Shown one piece after another: positions 24,724-32,000 of a stretch of 32,000 bases of DNA. Source of the DNA: Thermoproteus tenax Kra 1 (GTDB lineage: Archaea > Thermoproteota > Thermoprotei > Thermoproteales > Thermoproteaceae); assembly GCF_000253055.1 (NCBI RefSeq), contig NC_016070.1:420001-452000 (forward strand). The letters are read 5' to 3'. Positions within the stretch are counted from its first letter, which is position 1; each line of letters opens with the position of its first letter. Below the pieces are notes generated by a model, which made no database searches, was not told the origin of the DNA, and saw nothing but the letters and a program-made list of their open reading frames with translations. The position numbers and the translations under genes were made by a program.

Positions 24724-24836
24724 AGCCTAGAACAGAAGGGAGTTTTTGAGCATTAGTTTCCTCGCTCATTTAACTCCACAATTACAAAATTATAATTATA
24801 ATTATTGCCAATTGAACAATCTATATAAATATTATG

Positions 24837-24867
24837 TATCAATTAAAATAAAAATAATATATTGATA
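24837..24867. promoter_or_regulatory. 7-bp inverted repeat (tatcaat N17 attgata) overlapping the presumed citrate synthase TATA region
   Basis: Seen directly: tatcaat at 24837-24843 and attgata at 24861-24867 flank aaaataaaaataat. The gltA ATG is at 24875. Confidence 0.3.
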
Positions 24868-24874
24868 TACGCCT

Positions 24875-25999
24875 ATGCAGTACAGCCCAGGTTTAGAGGG
24901 AATAATAGTAAAAGAAAGTAAAATTTGTTTAATAGACGTCGAGAACTCCAAGATATACTACAGAGGCTACGACATAGAGGAGCTCGCCGATAAATCGACC
25001 TTTGAGGAGACGGCATATCTGTTGATCTACGGCCAACTTCCGAGGGCCTCCGAGCTCGATGCGTTCAAGGAGAGGCTCGCCTCGCTGAGGCGGCCCCCCG
25101 AGCATGTGGTGAAGTTGCTCGGCCTGCTCCCCAAAAGCGCCGAGCCTATCGACGTCCTCAGAACCGCCGTCTCGGCCATGGGCATGGGCAGAAATCTGTC
25201 GGACAGATCCCCGGAGGCGGAGCTGGAGAGAGGCTTGGAGGTGATCGCGTCTATGCCCTTCATTGCCGCCAACTGGGATAGAACGAGGCGCGGGCTTGAG
25301 ATCGCGGATCCGCAGGCCGAGGGCCATGCCGAGTATTTCCTCAGAGCGCTCAAGGGGGATGCGTCCCCCAGACAGATCAAGGCGATGGACGTCATGTTGA
25401 TAATCTACGCCGAGCACGGCATGAACAACAGCGCCTTCACAGCTGTGACAGTGGCCTCGACGCTCTCCGATATGTACTCAGTGATCTCGGCAGCTATAGC
25501 GAGCCTCAAGGGCCCGCTCCACGGAGGGGCCAATATAGATGCGGCCAAAATGATAGAGGAGGTGGGAGAGCCGGGGAGAGTCCAGAGGTGGGTGGACGAG
25601 GCGCTCGCGGCGGGCAAGAGAATACCTGGCTTCGGGCACAGGCTCTACAAGAGGGGGCCCGACCCGCGCCTGAGGGTTTTGAGGCGGCTGGCCCGCGAGC
25701 TCGCCGAGGAGGCCGGCGACTATAAATACTACGAGATCGCTGAGAGGCTCGAGGAGTACGTCCACTCTAGGCTTTCTCACAAGGGGATCTACGCAAACAC
25801 TGACCTTTACGCCGCGGTCATCTTCAAATATCTGGGCCTTCCCACAGACCTCAATCTGCCGGCCTTCGCCATGTCGCGCGCAGCCGGCTGGGTGGCGCAC
25901 GCAGTGGAGTATAGAAGGAACAACAGATTGATACGCCCCACCGAGAGATACATTGGACCAGTCGGCCTTAGGTATATCCCTCTGGAGGCCCGGGGCTGA
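24875..25999 (+). CDS. gltA: Citrate synthase
   Basis: The catalytic GFGHRLYK motif, HGGANI, and EHGMNNSAF are present. At 374 aa the length is typical of archaeal citrate synthase. Confidence 0.93.
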   Translation: MQYSPGLEGIIVKESKICLIDVENSKIYYRGYDIEELADKSTFEETAYLLIYGQLPRASELDAFKERLASLRRPPEHVVKLLGLLPKSAEPIDVLRTAVSAMGMGRNLSDRSPEAELERGLEVIASMPFIAANWDRTRRGLEIADPQAEGHAEYFLRALKGDASPRQIKAMDVMLIIYAEHGMNNSAFTAVTVASTLSDMYSVISAAIASLKGPLHGGANIDAAKMIEEVGEPGRVQRWVDEALAAGKRIPGFGHRLYKRGPDPRLRVLRRLARELAEEAGDYKYYEIAERLEEYVHSRLSHKGIYANTDLYAAVIFKYLGLPTDLNLPAFAMSRAAGWVAHAVEYRRNNRLIRPTERYIGPVGLRYIPLEARG

Positions 26000-26274
26000 T
26001 TATCCCGCCCTTAAGGGAGGACATAGCTCTCTCACACTTCTTGATCGTTGAAAAATTCTGTTCTGGCGCAGGCGGGAGGCCTAAATCACGCGCGTGCGTC
26101 TACGGCGGCTGGGGGGGCAGTGTCTCATGAGGGGGCTCTGCCCTGACTGGAGGGGGACCTGCCGCCCGGCCCCACGCCCGATGGCCCCGCGCCGGAGGTA
26201 TTTTGGATACCGATGAAGGCGTGGGCGAGGAGGAAGCCCCTAGGCGCAACAGCCTAGGGACAAGCGACAAACGG

Positions 26275-27765
26275 TTACCCCAAGGCTGTAATATTGTAGA
26301 CCCTCAGCAGAGCCGCCGTGCTGTATCCAACGTAGGCCGGTTGGGCCGAGTAGAAACAGCCGTACCTCGCCAATATGTTCCCATAGACATCGCGCAGTAT
26401 TATATCGCCCCAGTCGTTGAGCGGCCTCAGCTCGACCCACGCGGACGCAGGGTAGTTGCCCAGATAGACCGAGGTTGAGCCACAGAGGGCATAGAAGTTA
26501 TCGCCCGATATGTTTACGCCGAAAATCGGCGTCAAGCTCTGGCTGAATACGGCGTAGGTGCCGGCCCCTGTGAAGTTGGATATATAGGTCAAGGCCCCCG
26601 ATATGAGGGATCTATAGAAGACCACATAGGGAGAGCCCTGAAGCACTAGGGCGCTACTGGTCTGAGCGGCCGACTGGCCGTAGACGCTCCAGTTTGAGGG
26701 CAGAGGGCACTGGGTCTCCGTCAAATTTACGTTCTTCCACTCGATTATGGTATTGCCGTTGGGCGAGTAGGTGACTAGGGCGAAGCCCACGATATACCCC
26801 GTCGAATACACCTGCGGTATACTGAGCGGAAGCCACTGTTTCTTTTTGTTTGTTATATTGAGATATATGGAAATGTAGGGAACACTGTAGCCATAGATAT
26901 ATTTGGAGAGGTTTGCAGGGCTTCTACCGTTCACTGAGTAGTAGTATATAACCTCTAGATACGGCTTTGGGTCGTTTGGACTGCTACTAATGAAGAAGTT
27001 GACTTGCAGATAGTCGTTGCCTGTAAGCGATGCTTGCAGATAGTAGTATACCGTGAAGCTGGAGCTGGCCGGTATAGGGCTACCCAGCCATTGGGTCACG
27101 TTGACGAAGCCTGCCGCCCATCCGTTCTTGCCGTCGGTATACAATATCCCGCTTGTGACATTTGCCTCCGATTTGCCCGTTGTAATAAGGTAGAGCCACG
27201 GGCTGGAGCTGTTGAATGAAGAAATGGAGTATGAGGGGCACGTGAAGACGTAGCTGTACAAGCGCGACATCGGCAACGCCGTGAAGTTCACCAACTGGAC
27301 AGCGCTGATCCCGCCGTTTTGGAACACGGCTTGGGCGAGCACTGAGTACCTCTGCGAGGAGATCGATGTCCATGTCACCGTGGCTGGAGTCGGCACAGGC
27401 GGGCCGGAGCTCTGGTAGCTAGAGATCTCGACCGAGCCGTCCAGCGATATGGCGTAGTTAGCTGTCCCTATCTGGGACAGTCTCTGGAGGCTGGCCGACC
27501 AGCCGGTGAACTTGGGCACAAAGACGCCGACCTCATAGTACTCCGGCCAGCCGGGAACAAATTTCATTATATAGTAAGTCACATTGTAGCCGCCGGCCGG
27601 CGCCCAGTAGGCCCTCGCCAGAGGATATAGGGAAAGGTTCCCGTCCTTCATGACCGGGGGGAGCGTCGCGTTTATGGAGTACTGGGTCTCGTTGAAGAAA
27701 GCCAGAGAGGCGAAGACGGCCGTTATAGCTAAGGCAAAGAACGCTGCCAGAGCTAGAGCCCTCAC
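26275..27765 (-). CDS. Large secreted, heavily sequon-decorated beta-rich protein of unknown function (operon gene 6; shares its N-terminal segment with gene 1)
   Basis: The signal peptide MRALALAAFFALAITAVFASLA is followed by FFNETQYSINATLPPVMK. I counted about 15 N-x-S/T sequons by hand. The composition is Tyr/Ser/Asn-rich and there is no TM after the signal. The ATG lies 2 nt after the upstream stop. Confidence 0.8.
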   Translation of the reverse strand: MRALALAAFFALAITAVFASLAFFNETQYSINATLPPVMKDGNLSLYPLARAYWAPAGGYNVTYYIMKFVPGWPEYYEVGVFVPKFTGWSASLQRLSQIGTANYAISLDGSVEISSYQSSGPPVPTPATVTWTSISSQRYSVLAQAVFQNGGISAVQLVNFTALPMSRLYSYVFTCPSYSISSFNSSSPWLYLITTGKSEANVTSGILYTDGKNGWAAGFVNVTQWLGSPIPASSSFTVYYYLQASLTGNDYLQVNFFISSSPNDPKPYLEVIYYYSVNGRSPANLSKYIYGYSVPYISIYLNITNKKKQWLPLSIPQVYSTGYIVGFALVTYSPNGNTIIEWKNVNLTETQCPLPSNWSVYGQSAAQTSSALVLQGSPYVVFYRSLISGALTYISNFTGAGTYAVFSQSLTPIFGVNISGDNFYALCGSTSVYLGNYPASAWVELRPLNDWGDIILRDVYGNILARYGCFYSAQPAYVGYSTAALLRVYNITALG

Positions 27766-27767
27766 GG

Positions 27768-28481
27768 CTAAGACGCCATCAGATCGAGCTTCTCTCTATC
27801 CTCTAGGGAGAGCGATGAAGGATCCACCGATGAGAGGATCACTTCAGCCGCGGCGCGCGCGTTGACGAAGTAGTAAGTGAAGGGGCCCACCTTGATAGAC
27901 TTCAGCTTACCCTCGCGCTCTAGCACATAGACGTGCCACTGCACAGCGCCCCAGCTCTTCCCCACCGCCTTGGCTATCTGCGAGAGCGTCGCAGCGCCCA
28001 TTTTCTCTACCGCCGCTATGATCTGCCTCCTGATGGGGTCGTCGGCAACAGCTCTTTTGACCCTCCCGATCGCGGGCAACCCCAGCGCTCCCAATGCGCC
28101 GAGCTTCTTGGCCAGAGGCCCCAACGCCACTGTTATCCACTCCCTCCTGTTAGTGGCCACATAGCTGGCGGCCCCCGCGGTCGAGGCTACGGCGAGGGCC
28201 ACGACAGCCGGGGGCAGGCCACCGGGCGCCGGGGGCGGAGGCGGCGGAGGACTTCCTTCAACTAAGACGTAGCCCCTGACTTCAACTGTCCTGTTGGTGG
28301 GGTTTTTACAGATGATAACCGCCGAGCCGGACGCAACGAAGGGGACGTTTGGCGTACAGTACGGCGGCAGATGCGGCGTTACTGTATAGTTACCGTAGGG
28401 TAGCGCTAAGTTTATGGGATACACGGTGAAAGGCAAGAGCATCACAGCAACAGTTATATTGAACACATAAAAGTTGAACAA
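27768..28481 (-). CDS. Membrane-tethered winged-helix (ArsR/MarR-like wHTH) protein with an extracellular N-terminal domain and a poly-Pro stalk (operon gene 5)
   Basis: From N to C: a hydrophobic N-terminus; a roughly 50-aa Cys-containing segment with sequons; PPPPPPPAPGGLPP (P-run encoded at 28230-28250); the TM AVVALAVASTAGAASYVA followed by NRRE (positive-inside). The C-terminal part reads DDPIRRQIIAAVEKMGAATLSQIAKAVGKSWGAVQWHVYVLEREGKLKSIKVGPFTYYFVN, a classic wHTH pattern. The start is TTG 28481 or ATG 28442. Confidence 0.75.
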   Translation of the reverse strand: MFNFYVFNITVAVMLLPFTVYPINLALPYGNYTVTPHLPPYCTPNVPFVASGSAVIICKNPTNRTVEVRGYVLVEGSPPPPPPPAPGGLPPAVVALAVASTAGAASYVATNRREWITVALGPLAKKLGALGALGLPAIGRVKRAVADDPIRRQIIAAVEKMGAATLSQIAKAVGKSWGAVQWHVYVLEREGKLKSIKVGPFTYYFVNARAAAEVILSSVDPSSLSLEDREKLDLMAS

Positions 28482-28506
28482 GATAGATATAAATTTTGCG
28501 TAGAAG

Positions 28507-28857
28507 TCAGAAGATGAAGGGGTCTGGAAGCCCCAAGAGCTTGGCCAACCCCAATAGAGCTGTAAGGTAGAGCCAAGCGGCTGCTGCGAAGACGTATGCG
28601 GGCCACCACCGCTTATACATGCCCCACCAACTGAAGCCTATGGAGAGGGCCAAGAGGAACAACGAGAGGAGGTAAGTGAAACGCAGATGGAAGAGGGGCC
28701 AGAGCTGGGCCAATACCCCGAGCGCAAAGCCGGCGACGAACGAGGCTATTAGGCCTGCTCCTCTGATGTAGTCGATCTGAGCGCCGAAATAGAGCGCGAC
28801 AAGTGCCGGGAGCAGAGCCGTGAACCCACCGGCTAGAGCGGCCAAAAGGGGGTCCAT
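28507..28857 (-). CDS. Small integral membrane protein, about 4 TM (operon gene 4)
   Basis: I read four hydrophobic helices by eye. ATG 28857 overlaps the upstream stop by 1 nt (TGATG). The longer track ORF starts at 28905. Confidence 0.65.
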   Translation of the reverse strand: MDPLLAALAGGFTALLPALVALYFGAQIDYIRGAGLIASFVAGFALGVLAQLWPLFHLRFTYLLSLFLLALSIGFSWWGMYKRWWPAYVFAAAAWLYLTALLGLAKLLGLPDPFIF

Positions 28858-29258
28858 CAGAAGAGCCAGAGCGTGTAGGAATTTAACAACTGCGCCGCCG
28901 TCCACAGAACGAAGAGGTAGACGAAGGGAGCACAGGCGATCAGGGCTAGGTCCAGATCTCGTCTCGAGGGCTTCAGCGCTATGGTCACCACCAACAGTTG
29001 GCTCGCCACTGTAAGCGCCAGCGCTATAAGGGCCGAGAGTCTCTCGTACACTTGAGGCGCGCCCGATGCTATCATGAGGGCGTCGTAGACGTTGCCCGCG
29101 GTGGAGGCCACGATGAAGAAGAGGACGGACGCCCTCTCCTGAAAGAGGGCCTTGGGATCTGCCCCCTCGTGTGAGGCCACTATCTGCTCCATCCAGAGTC
29201 TGGCGACTCCCAACGCCATCCCGAAGACGGCGCCTGCCAAGAGAGGCGTCAGCTCCAT
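28857..29258 (-). CDS. Small integral membrane protein, about 4 TM (operon gene 3)
   Basis: The 133-aa ORF has four hydrophobic segments. Its start overlaps the upstream gene end by 10 nt. Confidence 0.65.
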   Translation of the reverse strand: MELTPLLAGAVFGMALGVARLWMEQIVASHEGADPKALFQERASVLFFIVASTAGNVYDALMIASGAPQVYERLSALIALALTVASQLLVVTIALKPSRRDLDLALIACAPFVYLFVLWTAAQLLNSYTLWLF

Positions 29259-30499
29259 GGCTTCAACGTCTCTACAGAGACCGAGAGGACGCTAGGTGGA
29301 CCGCCCCATCTGCCGGTGGCGTCGGCCACTATAACGAAGGGGCCCACATAGCCCGCAGGTAGGCCGAACGGCAGAGGCGAGTCACGGGCGTAGGGCTGGA
29401 GTGGGCCAAAGTAGTAGTACGTCGTGCCGTTATAGCGGAAGAGCCACGCGTTGCCGGATTTGCCCGCCGGCGGCTGGGAGCCGAAGAGGACGAGGTCGGT
29501 CGACAGGAGAGGCGACTGAGTAAACTCCGCGTAATAATAGATCAGATACATGTCCACCGGCGTGTTCACCGTATAGAGGTAGTATCTGCTGACTGCCGTA
29601 GTCCCGTTGGCGGTCGATATAGCCGCTATAGCTCCTCGCTCGCTCCAACCCTCTTTCCACTCCGGAGTCGACAGCACGTAGCCGTAGTTCTCTGGGACTC
29701 CCACGATGCCTATGTCGTTCTGGGCTGCAGCTGACGAGGCGTCTAGAGGTTCGGCAGCTGTATAGGTGGGGGGAATACACGGCGCCGGATAGATGTAGAG
29801 CGTTGTAGGCCCCGACATGTTCACTAGGAATGTGTACCTCTCCACGGGCCCTCCAGGGTGCGGAAGTAGGGCCAGCTCTCCGCCCAAAACGAGCCCCTCC
29901 CTCAACGGAGCGTAGTCGATTACCTGCACAGTCGCCAGGGCGCCGGCCTGCTCGACCACACAGCCTGGGAATGGCAGTCTGCCGATAGGGATCGACCAGG
30001 CGTACAGCTCGCCGCTCTCCCCGATCTGCAGTAGCTGCCAGCCTGTGCCGTTCAGCTTGAGGACTACCCTCTGTGACACATCGGGATACCAGTCGATCTC
30101 CTTGACTTTGACCCACACAGTCTGGAGCCAGCGCATATAGGTAAAATTGACATAGCAAGTCCCTTGGAAGGCCGGCGGCACGACGAGGTTCAAAGTATAC
30201 GTCCCGGGGCCCGATAAATAGGGCGGTATACCCAGGGAACAGTTCGTCGCTATATACATATAGGGCCCGTTGACCGCAATCGAGAGGGCGTCTGGGTAGC
30301 TCCACGAGCCGTACGGCGAGCTGTACAAGTAGAGCGTCCCATCTCTGATCGCCATGCCGGCGCCCGCGACGTTCAAGCTAACGGAGGCTGGCTCAGTCGC
30401 CTTGAACATGCTCCCTCCAGTGGAGGGGGCGGCTATGTAGATGGAGAAGACTAAGAGGGGGAAGAAGGTGATAAAAAAGGCCTTTAGTTTAGCCCTCAC
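29249..30499 (-). CDS. Secreted beta-rich protein of unknown function (operon gene 2)
   Basis: The N-terminal signal/anchor is MRAKLKAFFITFFPLLVFSIYIAA. I counted about 6 sequons. The composition is Tyr/Gly/Pro-rich and there is no further TM. The GTG start overlaps the stop of gene 1. Confidence 0.75.
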   Translation of the reverse strand: MRAKLKAFFITFFPLLVFSIYIAAPSTGGSMFKATEPASVSLNVAGAGMAIRDGTLYLYSSPYGSWSYPDALSIAVNGPYMYIATNCSLGIPPYLSGPGTYTLNLVVPPAFQGTCYVNFTYMRWLQTVWVKVKEIDWYPDVSQRVVLKLNGTGWQLLQIGESGELYAWSIPIGRLPFPGCVVEQAGALATVQVIDYAPLREGLVLGGELALLPHPGGPVERYTFLVNMSGPTTLYIYPAPCIPPTYTAAEPLDASSAAAQNDIGIVGVPENYGYVLSTPEWKEGWSERGAIAAISTANGTTAVSRYYLYTVNTPVDMYLIYYYAEFTQSPLLSTDLVLFGSQPPAGKSGNAWLFRYNGTTYYYFGPLQPYARDSPLPFGLPAGYVGPFVIVADATGRWGGPPSVLSVSVETLKPWS

Positions 30500-31071
30500 T
30501 GAGGCGACATCACTATGTTGATCTGGTAAGTGGCCAATACGGTGTTACCGTTGGCGTACGTAGCGGGCAGAGTTGGATCTACGTCTATATATGCGCCGAG
30601 CGTGATACACTGGCCATAGCCGATAGTGCCCAAGTTGGCCGTGCTCTGGACTACGCTGGTGCCTTTGAACTCGACGTACTGTTGAGGATTGGCGCTGTTG
30701 TACACCCTGAAGTCGTCCACATAGCTCTCAAGGCCGGTCGAGCCAACTGTGCCGACGGCTTGTAGAGTAACTTGTATATTGCCCTGGTAGTACTTGTTGC
30801 AGATCAACAACAAGTTGCTGTAGTTCGTGGGATCGCCCGTGAAGCCTATGATGGATATCCTGGTTATGTTTACGCCGTTGCTGTAGTAGTAGCTCACTTT
30901 GGCGAACTGTCCATTGGCGGTTTGTGTGTCCAATCCAGGGTACTTCATGGCGGGAGGCAGAGTGGCGTTTATGACCCAATAGGATACATTAGTGAACGTT
31001 ATCGTCGCCATCGTCAACGCGGCCAGTCCCAGTGCAGCCAGCGCCAGTAGGCCCAGCTTTCCCTTTTCCAT
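30496..31071 (-). CDS. Small secreted beta-rich protein, candidate major subunit of a surface structure (operon gene 1)
   Basis: The signal peptide MEKGKLGLLALAALGLAALTMA is followed by TITFTNVSYWVINATLPPAMK. The mature protein is about 170 aa with alternating beta-like sequence, 2 Cys and 4 sequons. The track start is 31092, but the TATA-like aatatatat abuts it, so ATG 31071 (leaderless) is more likely. Confidence 0.75.
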   Translation of the reverse strand: MEKGKLGLLALAALGLAALTMATITFTNVSYWVINATLPPAMKYPGLDTQTANGQFAKVSYYYSNGVNITRISIIGFTGDPTNYSNLLLICNKYYQGNIQVTLQAVGTVGSTGLESYVDDFRVYNSANPQQYVEFKGTSVVQSTANLGTIGYGQCITLGAYIDVDPTLPATYANGNTVLATYQINIVMSPQ

Positions 31072-31092
31072 GTCCTTCCGCAAGAAGCCCAT

Positions 31093-31101
31093 ATATATTC
31101 T
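31093..31101 (-). promoter_or_regulatory. TATA-like box for the six-gene operon
   Basis: The minus strand reads aatatatat, about 25 nt upstream of ATG 31071. It lies in the 100-bp gap after the moeA stop. Confidence 0.4.
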
Positions 31102-31193
31102 TTACGTACCGCTTTTCGGCCGAGCCCCGACTGCTCGTCTGCCCGCAACAGAGGTACAGTCGATCCATACAGCGATGCAGCCGTAGGCGCCGG

Positions 31194-32000
31194 CTATTCC
31201 TCCACTGGCCTCAACAGCTGCACCTCGACCTCCTCCCCCTCGTCGTAGCCCTCTCTATTCTCGGGGACTATTAGGAGTCCGTTCCCTCTGGTCAATGTGG
31301 ACAACACGCCGCTTCCGGTCACAGCCAGAGGCTCAATATACGTCCTGTCCCCGGCCCTATACACGCGGACTCTGGCGTACGTCCTCACGTTTATAGGGGT
31401 GGTCACGCGCCGGGTCAGAACTCCTCTCACAGTGGGGACTGGGTCGGGCCTCCCGCCCACCATTTTGAGGAGCGCAGGCCTTGCGAAGATCTCGAAGCCC
31501 ACTACGGCGGCCACGGGGAAGCCCGAGAGCACCACGACGGGCCTCCCGCGGACTACGGCGGCTCCGTTGGGTCTGCCGGGCCTCGCGGCTATCCCCCTCA
31601 CGTAGAACTCGGCGAGCGCCGAGACGGCCTTGTGCGTTGCATCCGGGTCCCCCACCGAGGCTCCCCCAGTGGTTAAGACTATGTCGTACGTCGAGATAGC
31701 CCTCTCTAGGGCCGACTCGATGGCCTCCACGTCGTCGGGCAGTAGGCCGAGGTATGCCGGCTCTGCCCCCGCCTCCTTCAACAGGCCCCATAGAGCGAAG
31801 CGCGTTGAGTTTATCACTTTGCCAGGCCTGGGCCCTTCCTCCACCTCGACCAGCTCGTCCCCAGTGGACAATATGGCGGCTCTGACCTCGTACACGGGCA
31901 CCCGCGATATGCCGACAGACGCCAACACTCCCAAGTCCCATGGCCTCAGCCTGGTCCCGGCCCTCAATATGCGCTCCCCCCTCGCCACGTCCTCGCCCCT
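31194..32000 (-). CDS. moeA: Molybdopterin molybdenumtransferase MoeA (3' part; the gene continues beyond the right window edge)
   Basis: MoeA motifs are present: STGDELV, PGKVINS, and LTTGGASVGDPD. The frame stays open upstream of the GTG at 31988 to position 32000 (RGEDVARGERIL...), so the N-terminal domain is off-window. Confidence 0.88.
   Translation of the reverse strand, partial: RGEDVARGERILRAGTRLRPWDLGVLASVGISRVPVYEVRAAILSTGDELVEVEEGPRPGKVINSTRFALWGLLKEAGAEPAYLGLLPDDVEAIESALERAISTYDIVLTTGGASVGDPDATHKAVSALAEFYVRGIAARPGRPNGAAVVRGRPVVVLSGFPVAAVVGFEIFARPALLKMVGGRPDPVPTVRGVLTRRVTTPINVRTYARVRVYRAGDRTYIEPLAVTGSGVLSTLTRGNGLLIVPENREGYDEGEEVEVQLLRPVEE

What the first reader, a model, noticed from the sequence alone, without database searches (positions are those of the whole stretch)
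26275..31092. Six-gene operon of secreted beta-rich glycoproteins, two 4-TM proteins and a membrane-tethered wHTH: candidate uncharacterised surface filament/adhesion system
Six minus-strand ORFs are packed with overlapping or near-abutting stop/start codons: overlaps at 30496-30499, 29249-29258 and 28857, a 25-nt gap at 28482-28506, and a 2-nt gap at 27766-27767. They follow a 100-bp promoter gap. This argues for one transcription unit.

Content:
- (1) A roughly 190-aa secreted beta-rich protein.
- (2) A 416-aa secreted protein.
- (3, 4) Two roughly 120-130-aa proteins with about 4 TM helices each.
- (5) A bitopic protein with an extracellular domain, a poly-Pro stalk, a TM helix and a cytoplasmic winged helix.
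- (6) A 496-aa secreted protein with about 15 N-glycosylation sequons.

I recognise no enzyme, ATPase, prepilin peptidase, sortase-like or S-layer signature in any of them. I cannot place any of them in a named family by eye.

The architecture has three parts: a small abundant-looking subunit, larger accessory secreted proteins that share the subunit's N-terminal segment, and membrane components with no secretion or assembly ATPase. That is what one would expect of a Sec-exported, self-assembling (donor-strand-type) extracellular fibre. Known examples are bacterial TasA fibres and the archaeal bundling pili (AbpA) described in Pyrobaculum.

One anecdotal point: gene 1 contains NKYYQGNIQVTLQA, which resembles the NKYQGNSIKLQF segment I remember from B. 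subtilis TasA.

Local composition also differs from the housekeeping flanks. For example, 26820-27000 is clearly AT-richer because of Tyr/Asn/Ile/Ser-rich coding.
Basis: partly seen in the sequence, partly recalled or inferred. Interest (0 to 1): 0.85.

Follow-up and report, generated by a model that had tools for sequence, protein, structure and literature searches.

The report
Thermoproteus tenax archaeal bundling-pilus operon
These six genes are the Thermoproteus tenax copy of the already published archaeal bundling-pilus (AbpA/TasA-like) gene cluster, so the system is known; the one fresh detail is that the last gene's protein carries a copy of the pilin's own insertion strand and probably plugs into the filament.

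Summary
The window is from Thermoproteus tenax.

Gene 1 is an ortholog of AbpA, the archaeal bundling pilin of Pyrobaculum calidifontis (PDB 7UEG; E = 2.9e-66, 58% identity). All six genes are collinear orthologs of Pcal_0910, 0909, 0908, 0907, 0905 and 0904, the ABP operon published by Wang et al. (PNAS 2022). The same gene order holds in 11 Thermoproteaceae loci.

Refinements:
- The true starts are probably 31071 (g1), 28857 (g4) and 28466 (g5).
- A TATA box conserved in 11 of 11 loci lies upstream of g5. This argues for two leaderless transcription units, abpA-abpB-g3-g4 and g5-g6.

One detail I did not find in the literature:
- Only g6 (the Pcal_0904 family), not AbpB, shares AbpA's signal-peptidase site and donor strand. 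hhalign on those 20 residues gives E = 2e-18, with one strand face conserved between the families.
- Among 1.84 billion representative proteins the module occurs only in these two families.
- g6 is thus predicted to insert into an AbpA groove as a TapA-like initiator, cap or adhesin.

Novelty: already known. Interest: low to moderate.

The parts
31091..31103 (-). TATA-like box (AAAGAATATATAT) of the abpA promoter. Its centre lies about 24 nt upstream of ATG 31071, which implies a leaderless transcript.
   Evidence: Read from the sequence. It is one of only two A/T-only runs of 9 nt or more inside the locus. The promoter function is inferred.
30496..31071 (-). abpA (g1): the bundling-pilus major pilin, 191 aa from ATG 31071. 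The longest ORF starts at 31092 (198 aa).
   Evidence: phmmer against PDB 7ueg_A 'Pilin' gives E = 2.9e-66. BLASTP shows 57.7% identity to Pcal_0910. The 100% identical NCBI T. tenax protein is 191 aa long. The three glycosylated Asn of P. calidifontis AbpA are conserved as N42, N75 and N90.
30943..31005 (-). Codes for the AbpA donor strand TITFTNVSYWVINATLPPAMK. This is the mature N-terminus after the predicted cleavage TMA|T.
   Evidence: Aligns with the experimentally determined mature N-terminus (T25) and donor strand of 7UEG. Nearly invariant across 112 homologs.
29249..30499 (-). abpB (g2): a 416-aa protein with an N-terminal hydrophobic leader or anchor, ortholog of the TapA-like protein Pcal_0909.
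   Evidence: 38.7% identity over the full length, E = 1.4e-72. Sits immediately downstream of abpA, or of the second abpA paralog where one is present, in every locus where that stretch is on the contig. The TapA-like fold comes from the literature and was not re-modelled here.
28857..29258 (-). g3: a 133-aa membrane protein with four hydrophobic segments, ortholog of Pcal_0908.
   Evidence: 46% identity, E = 1.4e-22. Four hydrophobic segments. The 11-sequence alignment keeps conserved R20, E24, R42, N56, Q87 and D101. No Pfam or PDB relative.
28507..28857 (-). g4: a 116-aa membrane protein with four hydrophobic segments, ortholog of Pcal_0907. The start is ATG 28857; the longest ORF starts at GTG 28905.
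   Evidence: 47% identity, E = 1.1e-23. The ortholog alignment supports the MDPLL start. Not a detectable paralog of g3 (hhalign probability 0.7%). No PDB relative.
28486..28497 (-). Internal TATA-like box (AAAATTTATATC) in the g4-g5 gap, about 24 nt upstream of GTG 28466.
   Evidence: An equivalent A/T box ends about 20-22 nt upstream of the start codon of all 10 g5 orthologs examined. The promoter function is inferred.
27768..28466 (-). g5: a membrane-tethered winged-helix protein, ortholog of Pcal_0905. It has an N-terminal hydrophobic segment, a roughly 55-aa ectodomain with two invariant Cys, a poly-Pro stalk, a TM helix followed by NRRE, and a cytoplasmic wHTH. The likely start is GTG 28466; the longest ORF starts at TTG 28481.
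   Evidence: 46% identity, E = 6e-56. Pfam HTH_24 E = 2.1e-6. The 11-sequence alignment is and the hydropathy analysis.
27903..28040 (-). The wHTH (HTH_24 / ArsR-like) domain of g5.
   Evidence: Pfam residues 148-193. NCBIfam ArsR/SmtB-type E = 1.1e-5. It is the most conserved part of the protein.
26275..27765 (-). g6: a 496-aa secreted protein with three beta-rich domains and 15 sequons, ortholog of Pcal_0904. T. tenax has the short form; most Pyrobaculum orthologs are 710-760 aa.
   Evidence: The N- and C-terminal domains show 48% and 38.5% identity to Pcal_0904. 93 homologs were found. The AF2 model has pLDDT 89.6. Foldseek returns only generic beta-sandwich or carbohydrate-binding-module-like hits.
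27646..27708 (-). Codes for the AbpA-type donor-strand module of g6, SLAFFNETQYSINATLPPVMK, which follows the predicted cleavage VFA|S.
   Evidence: BLASTP finds 12 of 23 residues identical to AbpA. hhalign on the donor segment alone gives probability 99.1%, E = 2e-18. The register and the invariant Ala at position -1 match AbpA. One face of the strand is conserved between the families. AF2 leaves the segment unpacked, with pLDDT below 50.

Best explanation
Identity. The locus is the Thermoproteus tenax ortholog of the archaeal bundling pilus (ABP) gene cluster described in Pyrobaculum calidifontis.

What is shown here or in the literature:
- g1 is AbpA.
- In P. calidifontis, AbpA is cleaved by signal peptidase I, N-glycosylated at three Asn that are conserved in T. 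tenax, and polymerises without an ATPase, chaperone or usher. It does so by inserting its N-terminal beta-strand into the jelly-roll sheet of the neighbouring subunit. The filaments then form antiparallel bundles that bridge cells.
- g2 is AbpB, whose P. calidifontis ortholog was assigned a TapA-like fold.
- g3 and g4 are conserved 4-TM proteins of unknown role.
- g5 is a membrane-tethered wHTH protein.
- g6 is the Pcal_0904-type large beta-rich protein.

What I infer:
1. The T. tenax proteins do the same job as their P. calidifontis orthologs.
2. The cluster is transcribed from two TATA promoters as leaderless mRNAs: abpA-abpB-g3-g4 and g5-g6.
3. g6 is cleaved at the same position as AbpA. 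That exposes an AbpA-type donor strand, which inserts into the acceptor groove of an AbpA subunit. AF2 builds g6's first domain as a complete fold without that strand, so g6 probably donates a strand but does not accept one. It would then sit at one filament end as an initiator or cap carrying adhesin-like beta-sandwich domains. This is the role shown for the N-terminus of B. subtilis TapA.
4. g5 most likely regulates the locus from the membrane.
For: Identity and synteny:
- AbpA identity.
- All six genes are collinear orthologs of the published operon (PMC9245690).
- The gene order is conserved in 11 loci from Pyrobaculum, Thermoproteus and Thermoproteaceae MAGs.
- The glycosylation sequons and cleavage site are conserved.

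Two promoters:
- The only two A/T-only runs of 9 nt or more in the locus sit about 24 nt upstream of ATG 31071 and GTG 28466.
- The second box is conserved upstream of all 10 g5 orthologs.
- NCBI's 191-aa AbpA model matches the 31071 start.

g6 donor strand:
- Full-profile hhalign gives 98.1% probability, E = 7.7e-14.
- The signal sits entirely in the 20-residue donor segment (E = 2e-18), with nothing significant after it.
- The same donor profiles score E = 0.03-1 against AbpB, g3 and g4.
- The register from the invariant Ala at -1 to NATLPP is identical in genome-matched pairs.
- Mean cross-family BLOSUM62 is 3.46 on one strand face and 0.34 on the other.
- An exhaustive profile search of 1.84 billion representatives found 29 proteins. 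Every one long enough to classify is an AbpA-type pilin or a g6-family protein.
- AF2 leaves the segment unpacked while the rest of the protein is confident.

TapA precedent: mature TapA begins AFHDI against TasA AFNDI, and its complete Ig fold restricts it to the filament start (PMC10151520).
Against: - No expression, proteomic or imaging data for T. tenax were available, so filament production in this species is inferred from orthology.
- Foldseek with the g6 domain-1 model did not return 7UEG. It gave only weak hits to chaperone-usher pilins and the FimH lectin domain (E about 1e-3, TM 0.37-0.43). Structure therefore neither confirms nor excludes a groove in g6.
- Wang et al. described the Pcal_0904 N-terminus as a transmembrane domain, not a cleaved signal peptide. 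I could not run SignalP.
- The shared segment includes the cleavage site and a glycosylation sequon, so part of its conservation could reflect processing rather than groove binding.
- T. tenax lacks the Pcal_0903 and Pcal_0906 genes of the reference operon.
- The promoter calls rest on sequence and conservation only.
Confidence: 0.88

Rival explanations
1. g6 (the Pcal_0904 family) is not a filament component. Its N-terminal hydrophobic segment stays in the membrane as an anchor, as annotated in the 2022 paper. On this reading, the segment shared with AbpA is conserved because both proteins use the same export, signal-peptidase and oligosaccharyltransferase recognition context, not because both bind the AbpA groove.
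For: - Wang et al. list Pcal_0904 as having a single N-terminal TM domain.
- The shared segment spans the cleavage site and the NAT sequon that is glycosylated in AbpA.
- Nothing beyond the donor segment is significantly similar.
- 7UEG was not recovered by Foldseek.
Against: - Processing signals do not normally demand about 20 conserved residues downstream of the cleavage site.
- They also would not produce conservation on alternate positions, which is the pattern of a strand with one buried face.
- AbpB and g5 are exported from the same locus and glycosylation-prone, yet they lack the module.
- The module is found in no other exported protein among 1.84 billion representatives.
- The -3/-1 residues (V-x-A, A-x-A) and the spacing are those of the experimentally cleaved AbpA.
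Confidence: 0.25
2. All six genes form one operon transcribed only from the promoter upstream of abpA. The A/T-rich box before g5 would then have no promoter function.
For: - Four of the five junctions overlap or abut.
- There is no obvious oligo-T terminator after g4.
- Wang et al. call the cluster a potential operon.
Against: - The g4-g5 gap is the only real intergenic gap in the locus.
- It holds one of only two A/T-only runs in 4.9 kb, at the same distance from a start codon as the abpA TATA box.
- The box is conserved in all 10 orthologous loci, including P. calidifontis, where a GTPase gene is inserted just upstream.
- Read-through from abpA and an internal promoter are not mutually exclusive.
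Confidence: 0.3
3. A previously unknown surface filament or adhesion system that merely resembles TasA/AbpA.
For: - None of the six proteins has a Pfam or NCBIfam family beyond the wHTH.
- The NCBI names are 'hypothetical protein'.
Against: - Direct orthology to a pilin whose structure has been solved.
- Gene-for-gene orthology to the published operon.
Confidence: 0.02
4. The secreted proteins are S-layer, glycoside-hydrolase or substrate-binding proteins unrelated to filaments.
For: The Foldseek hits for g6 include carbohydrate-binding modules and glycan-binding proteins.
Against: - Those hits are to generic beta-sandwich modules at TM below 0.3, and no catalytic domain was hit.
- The proposed T. 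tenax S-layer protein is a different, much larger gene (TTX_1887; preprint 10.64898/2026.08.21.746120).
Confidence: 0.02

Closest known systems
Archaeal bundling pilus (ABP) operon of Pyrobaculum calidifontis, Pcal_0910-0903 (Wang et al., PNAS 2022; PDB 7UEG)
   Same: - Same gene order and orthologs for AbpA, AbpB, the two 4-TM proteins, the wHTH protein and the large beta-rich protein (36-58% identity).
- Same cleavage site, donor strand and three glycosylation sequons in AbpA.
- No ATPase, chaperone, usher or dedicated signal peptidase.
   Different: - T. tenax lacks the small GTPase (Pcal_0906, already reported as non-conserved) and the last gene, Pcal_0903.
- Its g6 is 496 aa instead of 754 aa: the internal repeat domains with DxDxDG-like loops are missing or degenerate.
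- No experimental data exist for T. tenax.
Bacillus subtilis tapA-sipW-tasA (TasA fibres; TapA as strand-donating initiator, Roske et al., PNAS 2023)
   Same: - A major jelly-roll subunit that polymerises by donor-strand complementation.
- A low-abundance accessory protein whose mature N-terminus mimics the subunit's donor strand (TapA AFHDI against TasA AFNDI; here g6 against AbpA).
   Different: - There is no dedicated SipW-type peptidase in the archaeal locus.
- The AbpA-TasA homology is visible only by HHpred in the literature. hmmscan against Pfam PF12389 finds nothing for g1.
- The protein that the literature assigned as the fold homolog of TapA (AbpB) is not the one that carries the donor-strand mimic (g6).
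- The archaeal proteins are N-glycosylated.
Accessory tip and minor subunits predicted in archaeal AbpX and Tafi loci (preprint 10.64898/2026.01.04.697558; PMC12337348)
   Same: Loci that encode a major donor-strand pilin together with predicted tip, minor-subunit or anchor proteins and a transcription factor. AF3 predicts that the accessory proteins co-assemble by donor-strand complementation.
   Different: - They belong to different subfamilies of the TasA superfamily.
- Those loci usually encode a dedicated signal peptidase I and a DUF5305 protein, which are absent here.
- In the papers I could search, no such assignment was made for the Thermoproteales abpA operon.
Chaperone-usher pili (Fim/Pap)
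   Same: - Donor-strand complementation between subunits.
- Specialised end subunits: an adhesin at one end and a terminator that donates a strand but does not accept one.
- g6 domain 1 gives weak Foldseek hits to the FimH lectin domain and to AggA, CooA and CfaB.
   Different: There is no periplasmic chaperone, no usher and no outer membrane. The fold matches are weak (TM 0.37-0.43) and there is no sequence relationship.

Membership tests
ABP (AbpA) operon of Thermoproteales | A major pilin homologous to AbpA (PDB 7UEG) | tested here: met
   phmmer E = 2.9e-66. The family profile scores E = 4.8e-93 against 7ueg_A. 57.7% identity.
ABP (AbpA) operon of Thermoproteales | A signal-peptidase-I site followed by the N-terminal donor strand, with the three N-glycosylation sequons seen in the cryo-EM map | tested here: met
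   TMA|TITFTNVSYWVINATLPPAMK aligns with AMA|TLTFTNLTYWLINATLPPAMK. N42, N75 and N90 correspond to N37, N78 and N93. Actual cleavage and glycosylation in T. tenax were not tested.
ABP (AbpA) operon of Thermoproteales | An AbpB (Pcal_0909) ortholog immediately downstream of abpA | tested here: met
   38.7% identity over the full length, E = 1.4e-72. The position is conserved in the loci compared.
ABP (AbpA) operon of Thermoproteales | A TapA-like beta-sandwich domain in AbpB | not tested
The claim rests on orthology to Pcal_0909 and on PMC9245690.
ABP (AbpA) operon of Thermoproteales | Collinear accessory genes: two 4-TM proteins, a wHTH protein and a large beta-rich protein | tested here: met
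   Orthologs of Pcal_0908, 0907, 0905 and 0904 lie in the same order. The order is conserved in 11 loci.
ABP (AbpA) operon of Thermoproteales | The eighth gene (Pcal_0903) and the GTPase (Pcal_0906) | tested here: not met
   tblastn finds no hit anywhere in the window. Pcal_0906 is reported as non-conserved. Pcal_0903 homologs are present in 6 of the 11 loci (L001, L004, L006, L007, L009 by tblastn; none detected in L005 or L012 where the contig continues), so these genes are not defining.
ABP (AbpA) operon of Thermoproteales | Formation of donor-strand filaments that bundle between cells | not testable with these tools
   This needs microscopy or cryo-EM of T. tenax.
TasA / camelysin family (Pfam PF12389, Peptidase_M73) | A match to the PF12389 profile | tested here: not met
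   hmmscan of g1 against Pfam at E up to 1 does not list PF12389. The AbpA profile finds no TasA chain in the PDB. The literature reports a 97% HHpred match for P. calidifontis AbpA, so the relationship is at superfamily level only.
TasA / camelysin family (Pfam PF12389, Peptidase_M73) | A dedicated SipW-type signal peptidase in the operon | tested here: not met
   None of the six proteins hits a signal-peptidase family. The same is reported for P. calidifontis.
TapA-type strand-donating initiator (functional class), for g6 | A mature N-terminus that mimics the donor strand of the major subunit | tested here: met
   For comparison, TapA AFHDI against TasA AFNDI.
TapA-type strand-donating initiator (functional class), for g6 | Its own fold is complete, so it cannot accept a strand | tested here: inconclusive
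   AF2 builds domain 1 confidently with the donor segment left out (pLDDT below 50). By contrast, AbpA is reported to self-complement in AlphaFold. No multimer modelling was possible.
Chaperone-usher pili | A periplasmic chaperone and an outer-membrane usher encoded with the pilins | tested here: not met
   No such families appear in the locus.
Type IV pili / archaella | A class III signal peptide, a prepilin peptidase, an assembly ATPase and a platform protein | tested here: not met
   No ATPase, peptidase or platform family is hit. AbpA has a signal-peptidase-I-type site and a beta-rich fold.

The most novel reading that the evidence does not exclude
The Pcal_0904/g6 family is the strand-donating end subunit of archaeal bundling pili. 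After cleavage at the same position as AbpA, it would insert an AbpA-type donor strand into the free groove of an AbpA subunit, nucleating or capping the filament and displaying lectin-like beta-sandwich domains. On this reading the functional TapA equivalent in archaea is g6 rather than AbpB. In addition, g6 is co-transcribed with a membrane-tethered wHTH protein from a separate, conserved promoter. That arrangement would let the cell control filament initiation independently of subunit supply.
Probability: 0.5. Interest if true: 0.5.

Novelty: already known. Interest (0 to 1): 0.3.

Why it matters
The locus confirms that T. tenax carries the complete core of the TasA-like bundling-pilus system. 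Its proteins are still labelled 'hypothetical protein' in the public records I retrieved, so it can be annotated accordingly.

The finding does not reveal a new kind of system. What it adds are testable details for people working on donor-strand filaments in archaea:
- A candidate initiator, cap or adhesin subunit (g6/Pcal_0904), recognisable by a donor-strand module found nowhere else among 1.84 billion representative proteins.
- A conserved internal promoter that separates the structural genes from the regulator-plus-g6 pair.

How chaperone-free donor-strand polymers are started, ended and anchored is still an open question for the ABP, thread and cannula systems.

Tried and rejected
1. g5 as a third donor-strand carrier. 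Its orthologs have a look-alike segment (for example VINASLPPICNATG), but hhalign gives under 1% probability with full profiles. The donor-only profile gives just a marginal hit (E = 0.0077, probability 5%). I treat it as unsupported.
2. g6 domain 1 as an AbpA-type jelly-roll paralog. The 98% hhalign probability collapses to 2.5% once the leader and donor strand are removed. Foldseek does not return 7UEG. I rejected it as a demonstrated claim.
3. g3 and g4 as paralogs of each other, or as relatives of any solved structure. hhalign probability is 0.7%, and there are no PDB hits at E up to 10.
4. Pfam and NCBIfam for all six proteins. Only the wHTH is found.
5. PDB sequence hits for g2 and g6. 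None is meaningful.
6. Whole-model Foldseek for g6. Only generic beta-sandwich or carbohydrate-binding-module-like matches at low TM.
7. It is a weak, non-collinear local match to a TasA sequence recalled from memory, so it is not evidence.
8. Pcal_0903 and Pcal_0906 homologs in the window. None found.
9. RNA genes, ORFs or conservation in the 275-nt gap downstream of g6. None found.
10. The supplement of the ABP paper, to see whether T. tenax appears in its synteny figure. It is not held as text.
11. A deep alignment for AbpB. The indexed search returned only 4 homologs, so AbpB was not modelled.

Full report
**Observation.** Their junctions are as described:
- GTGA overlap between g1 and g2
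- 10-nt overlap between g2 and g3
- 1-nt TGATG overlap between g3 and g4
- a short gap between g4 and g5
- a 2-nt gap between g5 and g6
- a 100-nt gap to the upstream MoeA-type gene

The descriptive claims also hold:
- g1, g2 and g6 have hydrophobic leaders, and g3 and g4 each have four hydrophobic segments.
- g5 has an N-terminal hydrophobic segment, a poly-Pro stalk, a second hydrophobic segment followed by NRRE, and a C-terminal winged helix (Pfam HTH_24, E = 2.1e-6).
- g6 has 15 sequons.
- GC drops to 0.398 at 26820-27000.
- Pfam and NCBIfam recognise nothing else in any of the six proteins.

**Identity.** A sequence search of the PDB with g1 gives one strong hit: 7UEG chain A, 'Pilin', at E = 2.9e-66. 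That entry is AbpA, the subunit of the archaeal bundling pilus of Pyrobaculum calidifontis (PMC9245690).

Homolog searches show that g1 and g6 are 100% identical to 'hypothetical proteins' of Thermoproteus tenax on a 1.84-Mb contig. The window is therefore T. tenax DNA.

I fetched the P. calidifontis locus and compared it gene by gene:

| T. tenax | P. calidifontis | Identity |
|---|---|---|
| g1 | Pcal_0910 (AbpA) | 58% |
| g2 | Pcal_0909 (AbpB) | 39%, full length |
| g3 | Pcal_0908 | 46% |
| g4 | Pcal_0907 | 47% |
| g5 | Pcal_0905 | 46% |
| g6 | Pcal_0904 | 48% (N-terminal domain), 38.5% (C-terminal domain) |

The non-conserved GTPase Pcal_0906 and the last gene, Pcal_0903, have no counterpart anywhere in the window. 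A scan of one genome per species with an AbpA profile returned ten further loci from Pyrobaculum, Thermoproteus and Thermoproteaceae MAGs. All have the same gene order wherever the contig is long enough.

The 2022 paper already describes this cluster as conserved in Thermoproteales. It names AbpA and AbpB, and it lists the 4-TM proteins, the wHTH protein and the large beta-rich protein.

**How it works (shown elsewhere, inferred here by orthology).** In P. calidifontis, AbpA is cleaved after AMA and is N-glycosylated at N37, N78 and N93. It polymerises by inserting its N-terminal strand into the jelly-roll sheet of the next subunit, and the filaments form antiparallel bundles that bridge cells. 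T. tenax g1 keeps three of these features:
- the cleavage context, TMA|T
- the donor strand, almost residue for residue
- all three sequons

The link to bacterial TasA exists only at superfamily level. hmmscan does not find PF12389 for g1, and the AbpA profile finds no TasA chain in the PDB. The published link rests on HHpred.

**Refined gene starts and transcription.** Inside the 4.9-kb locus there are exactly two A/T-only runs of 9 nt or more.
- The first, AAAGAATATATAT at 31103-31091, overlaps the longest-ORF ATG of g1. Its centre lies about 24 nt upstream of the second ATG at 31071. That is the start NCBI uses (191 aa), and it fits the orthologs' N-termini.
- The second, AAAATTTATATC at 28497-28486, fills the g4-g5 gap. 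It lies about 24 nt upstream of an in-frame GTG at 28466. Starting there gives MFNITV..., which matches the MN(V)TV... start of all the orthologs.

An equivalent A/T box ends 20-22 nt upstream of the start codon in all ten g5 orthologs examined. That includes P. calidifontis, where a GTPase gene is inserted just upstream.

From established knowledge of archaeal promoters (a TATA box about 25 nt upstream of the start site, and frequent leaderless mRNAs in Thermoproteales), I infer two transcription units, abpA-abpB-g3-g4 and g5-g6. Read-through is not excluded. The ortholog alignment also fixes the g4 start at ATG 28857.

**The shared N-terminal segment.** That is true for g6 only.
- BLASTP aligns g1 residues 28-50 with g6 residues 18-40 at 12 of 23 identities. 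g2 shows nothing.
- The motif is conserved through both families: 112 AbpA and 70 g6-family sequences, including Pcal_0904.
- A profile-profile comparison of the two families gives 98.1% probability, E = 7.7e-14.
- Trimming shows where the signal lies. The 20-residue donor segment alone gives 99.1% probability, E = 2e-18. The domains after it give 2.5%.
- The same donor profiles score E = 0.03-1 against AbpB, g3 and g4, and only marginally against g5 (E = 0.0077, probability 5%).

In genome-matched pairs the two strands are in identical register. Both have an invariant Ala at the -1 position of the cleavage site, and the same 12 residues separate that site from NATLPP. Conservation between the families alternates along the strand: mean BLOSUM62 is 3.46 at positions -11, -9, -7, -5, -3 and -1, against 0.34 in between. 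This is what one expects of a beta-strand with one face buried in the same groove.

An exhaustive HMMER search of 1.84 billion representative proteins with a leader-plus-donor profile found 29 proteins. Every one long enough to classify is an AbpA-type pilin or a g6-family protein.

**Structure of g6.**
- AF2 with a 24-sequence alignment gives a confident model (pLDDT 89.6) with three all-beta domains. The donor-like segment is the only low-confidence part and is not packed into the fold.
- Domain 1 modelled alone behaves the same way.
- Foldseek with the whole model returns generic beta-sandwich and carbohydrate-binding-module-like proteins at low TM.
- Domain 1 alone returns weak hits (E about 1e-3, TM 0.37-0.43) enriched in the FimH lectin domain and the chaperone-usher pilins AggA, CooA and CfaB. 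It does not return 7UEG.

I therefore do not claim that g6 contains an AbpA-type jelly roll. I claim only that it carries an AbpA-type donor strand on a different or highly diverged beta-sandwich body.

**Interpretation of g6.** The closest precedent is B. subtilis TapA. Its mature N-terminus (AFHDI) mimics that of TasA (AFNDI) and is donated to TasA. Its own Ig fold is complete, so it can only sit at the start of a filament (PMC10151520).

By that functional criterion, the TapA-like component of the archaeal system is g6/Pcal_0904. AbpB was called TapA-like on fold grounds, and its N-terminus shows no mimicry.

Tip and minor subunits assembling by strand complementation have been predicted for AbpX and Tafi loci. 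I found no such statement for the Thermoproteales abpA operon in the papers I could search. The library does not cover everything, so 'not previously noted' is provisional.

The main rival reading is that the g6 leader is an uncleaved anchor, as annotated in 2022, and that the shared segment reflects processing signals. I rate this at about 0.25, because of the alternating conservation and because the module is exclusive to these two families.

**Other components.** g3 and g4 are conserved 4-TM proteins with invariant charged and polar residues. They are not detectably related to each other or to any solved structure, and their role is unknown. A membrane platform or anchor is a guess.

In g5, a small two-Cys ectodomain is joined through a TM helix to a highly conserved cytoplasmic wHTH. 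Its position behind its own conserved promoter suggests a membrane-bound regulator of the locus.

**Verdict.** The locus is an ortholog of a published, structurally characterised system. The g6 donor-strand module and the internal promoter are modest, testable additions.

Noticed in passing
L004:10668-11249, L006:7475-8074, L008:10661-11248: Several Pyrobaculum loci carry a second AbpA paralog between abpA and abpB. It is about 31-34% identical to T. tenax AbpA and has its own donor-strand variant, SVxNVTYWYVNTTxPPVxKYVG. It is absent from T. tenax and P. calidifontis. It could be a minor pilin.
   Followed up: partly
window 26275-27765 (g6), especially 26820-27000: T. tenax g6 is 496 aa, while most Pyrobaculum orthologs are 710-760 aa. 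The internal repeat domains carrying an NNVAYxxxGVDxxGDGxxDxEYI motif (a DxDxDG-like, possibly Ca-binding loop) are missing. Other short forms of about 500 aa exist in Thermoproteus-like metagenome sequences (P0122, P0124, P0127).
   Followed up: partly
window 26000-26274: A 275-nt GC-rich gap lies between the convergent citrate synthase gene and g6. It has no tRNA, Rfam match, plausible ORF, Pcal_0903 remnant or conservation in related loci. The first oligo-T run on the minus strand is about 220 nt past the g6 stop, at roughly 26053-26057.
   Followed up: yes
window 24786-24863: A very A/T-rich intergenic stretch (three A/T-only runs of 14-23 nt) lies immediately upstream of the citrate synthase gene (24875-25999, Pfam Citrate_synt E = 3.7e-122). 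It is probably a promoter region.
   Followed up: no
window 27768-28466 (g5) and its orthologs in L001, L004-L012: All g5 orthologs begin with an invariant M-N-x-T sequon at the extreme N-terminus and lack any positive charge before the first hydrophobic segment, which is unusual for a Sec signal peptide. They also keep two invariant Cys in the small ectodomain and an LPP-containing segment that superficially resembles the AbpA donor strand. That resemblance is not statistically supported.
   Followed up: partly
L001:12256-12780 (Pcal_0903) and homologs in L004, L006, L007, L009: The last gene of the reference operon is present in many Pyrobaculum loci but absent from the T. tenax window. No homolog was detected downstream of g6 in L005 or L012 either. 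It has no Pfam family. By eye, its C-terminal half looks like a small beta-sandwich rather than a purely 4-TM protein.
   Followed up: partly
window 31194-31988: The upstream neighbour is a MoeA-type molybdopterin molybdenumtransferase (MoCF_biosynth plus MoeA_C). Its N-terminus runs off the window. It is unrelated housekeeping context.
   Followed up: yes
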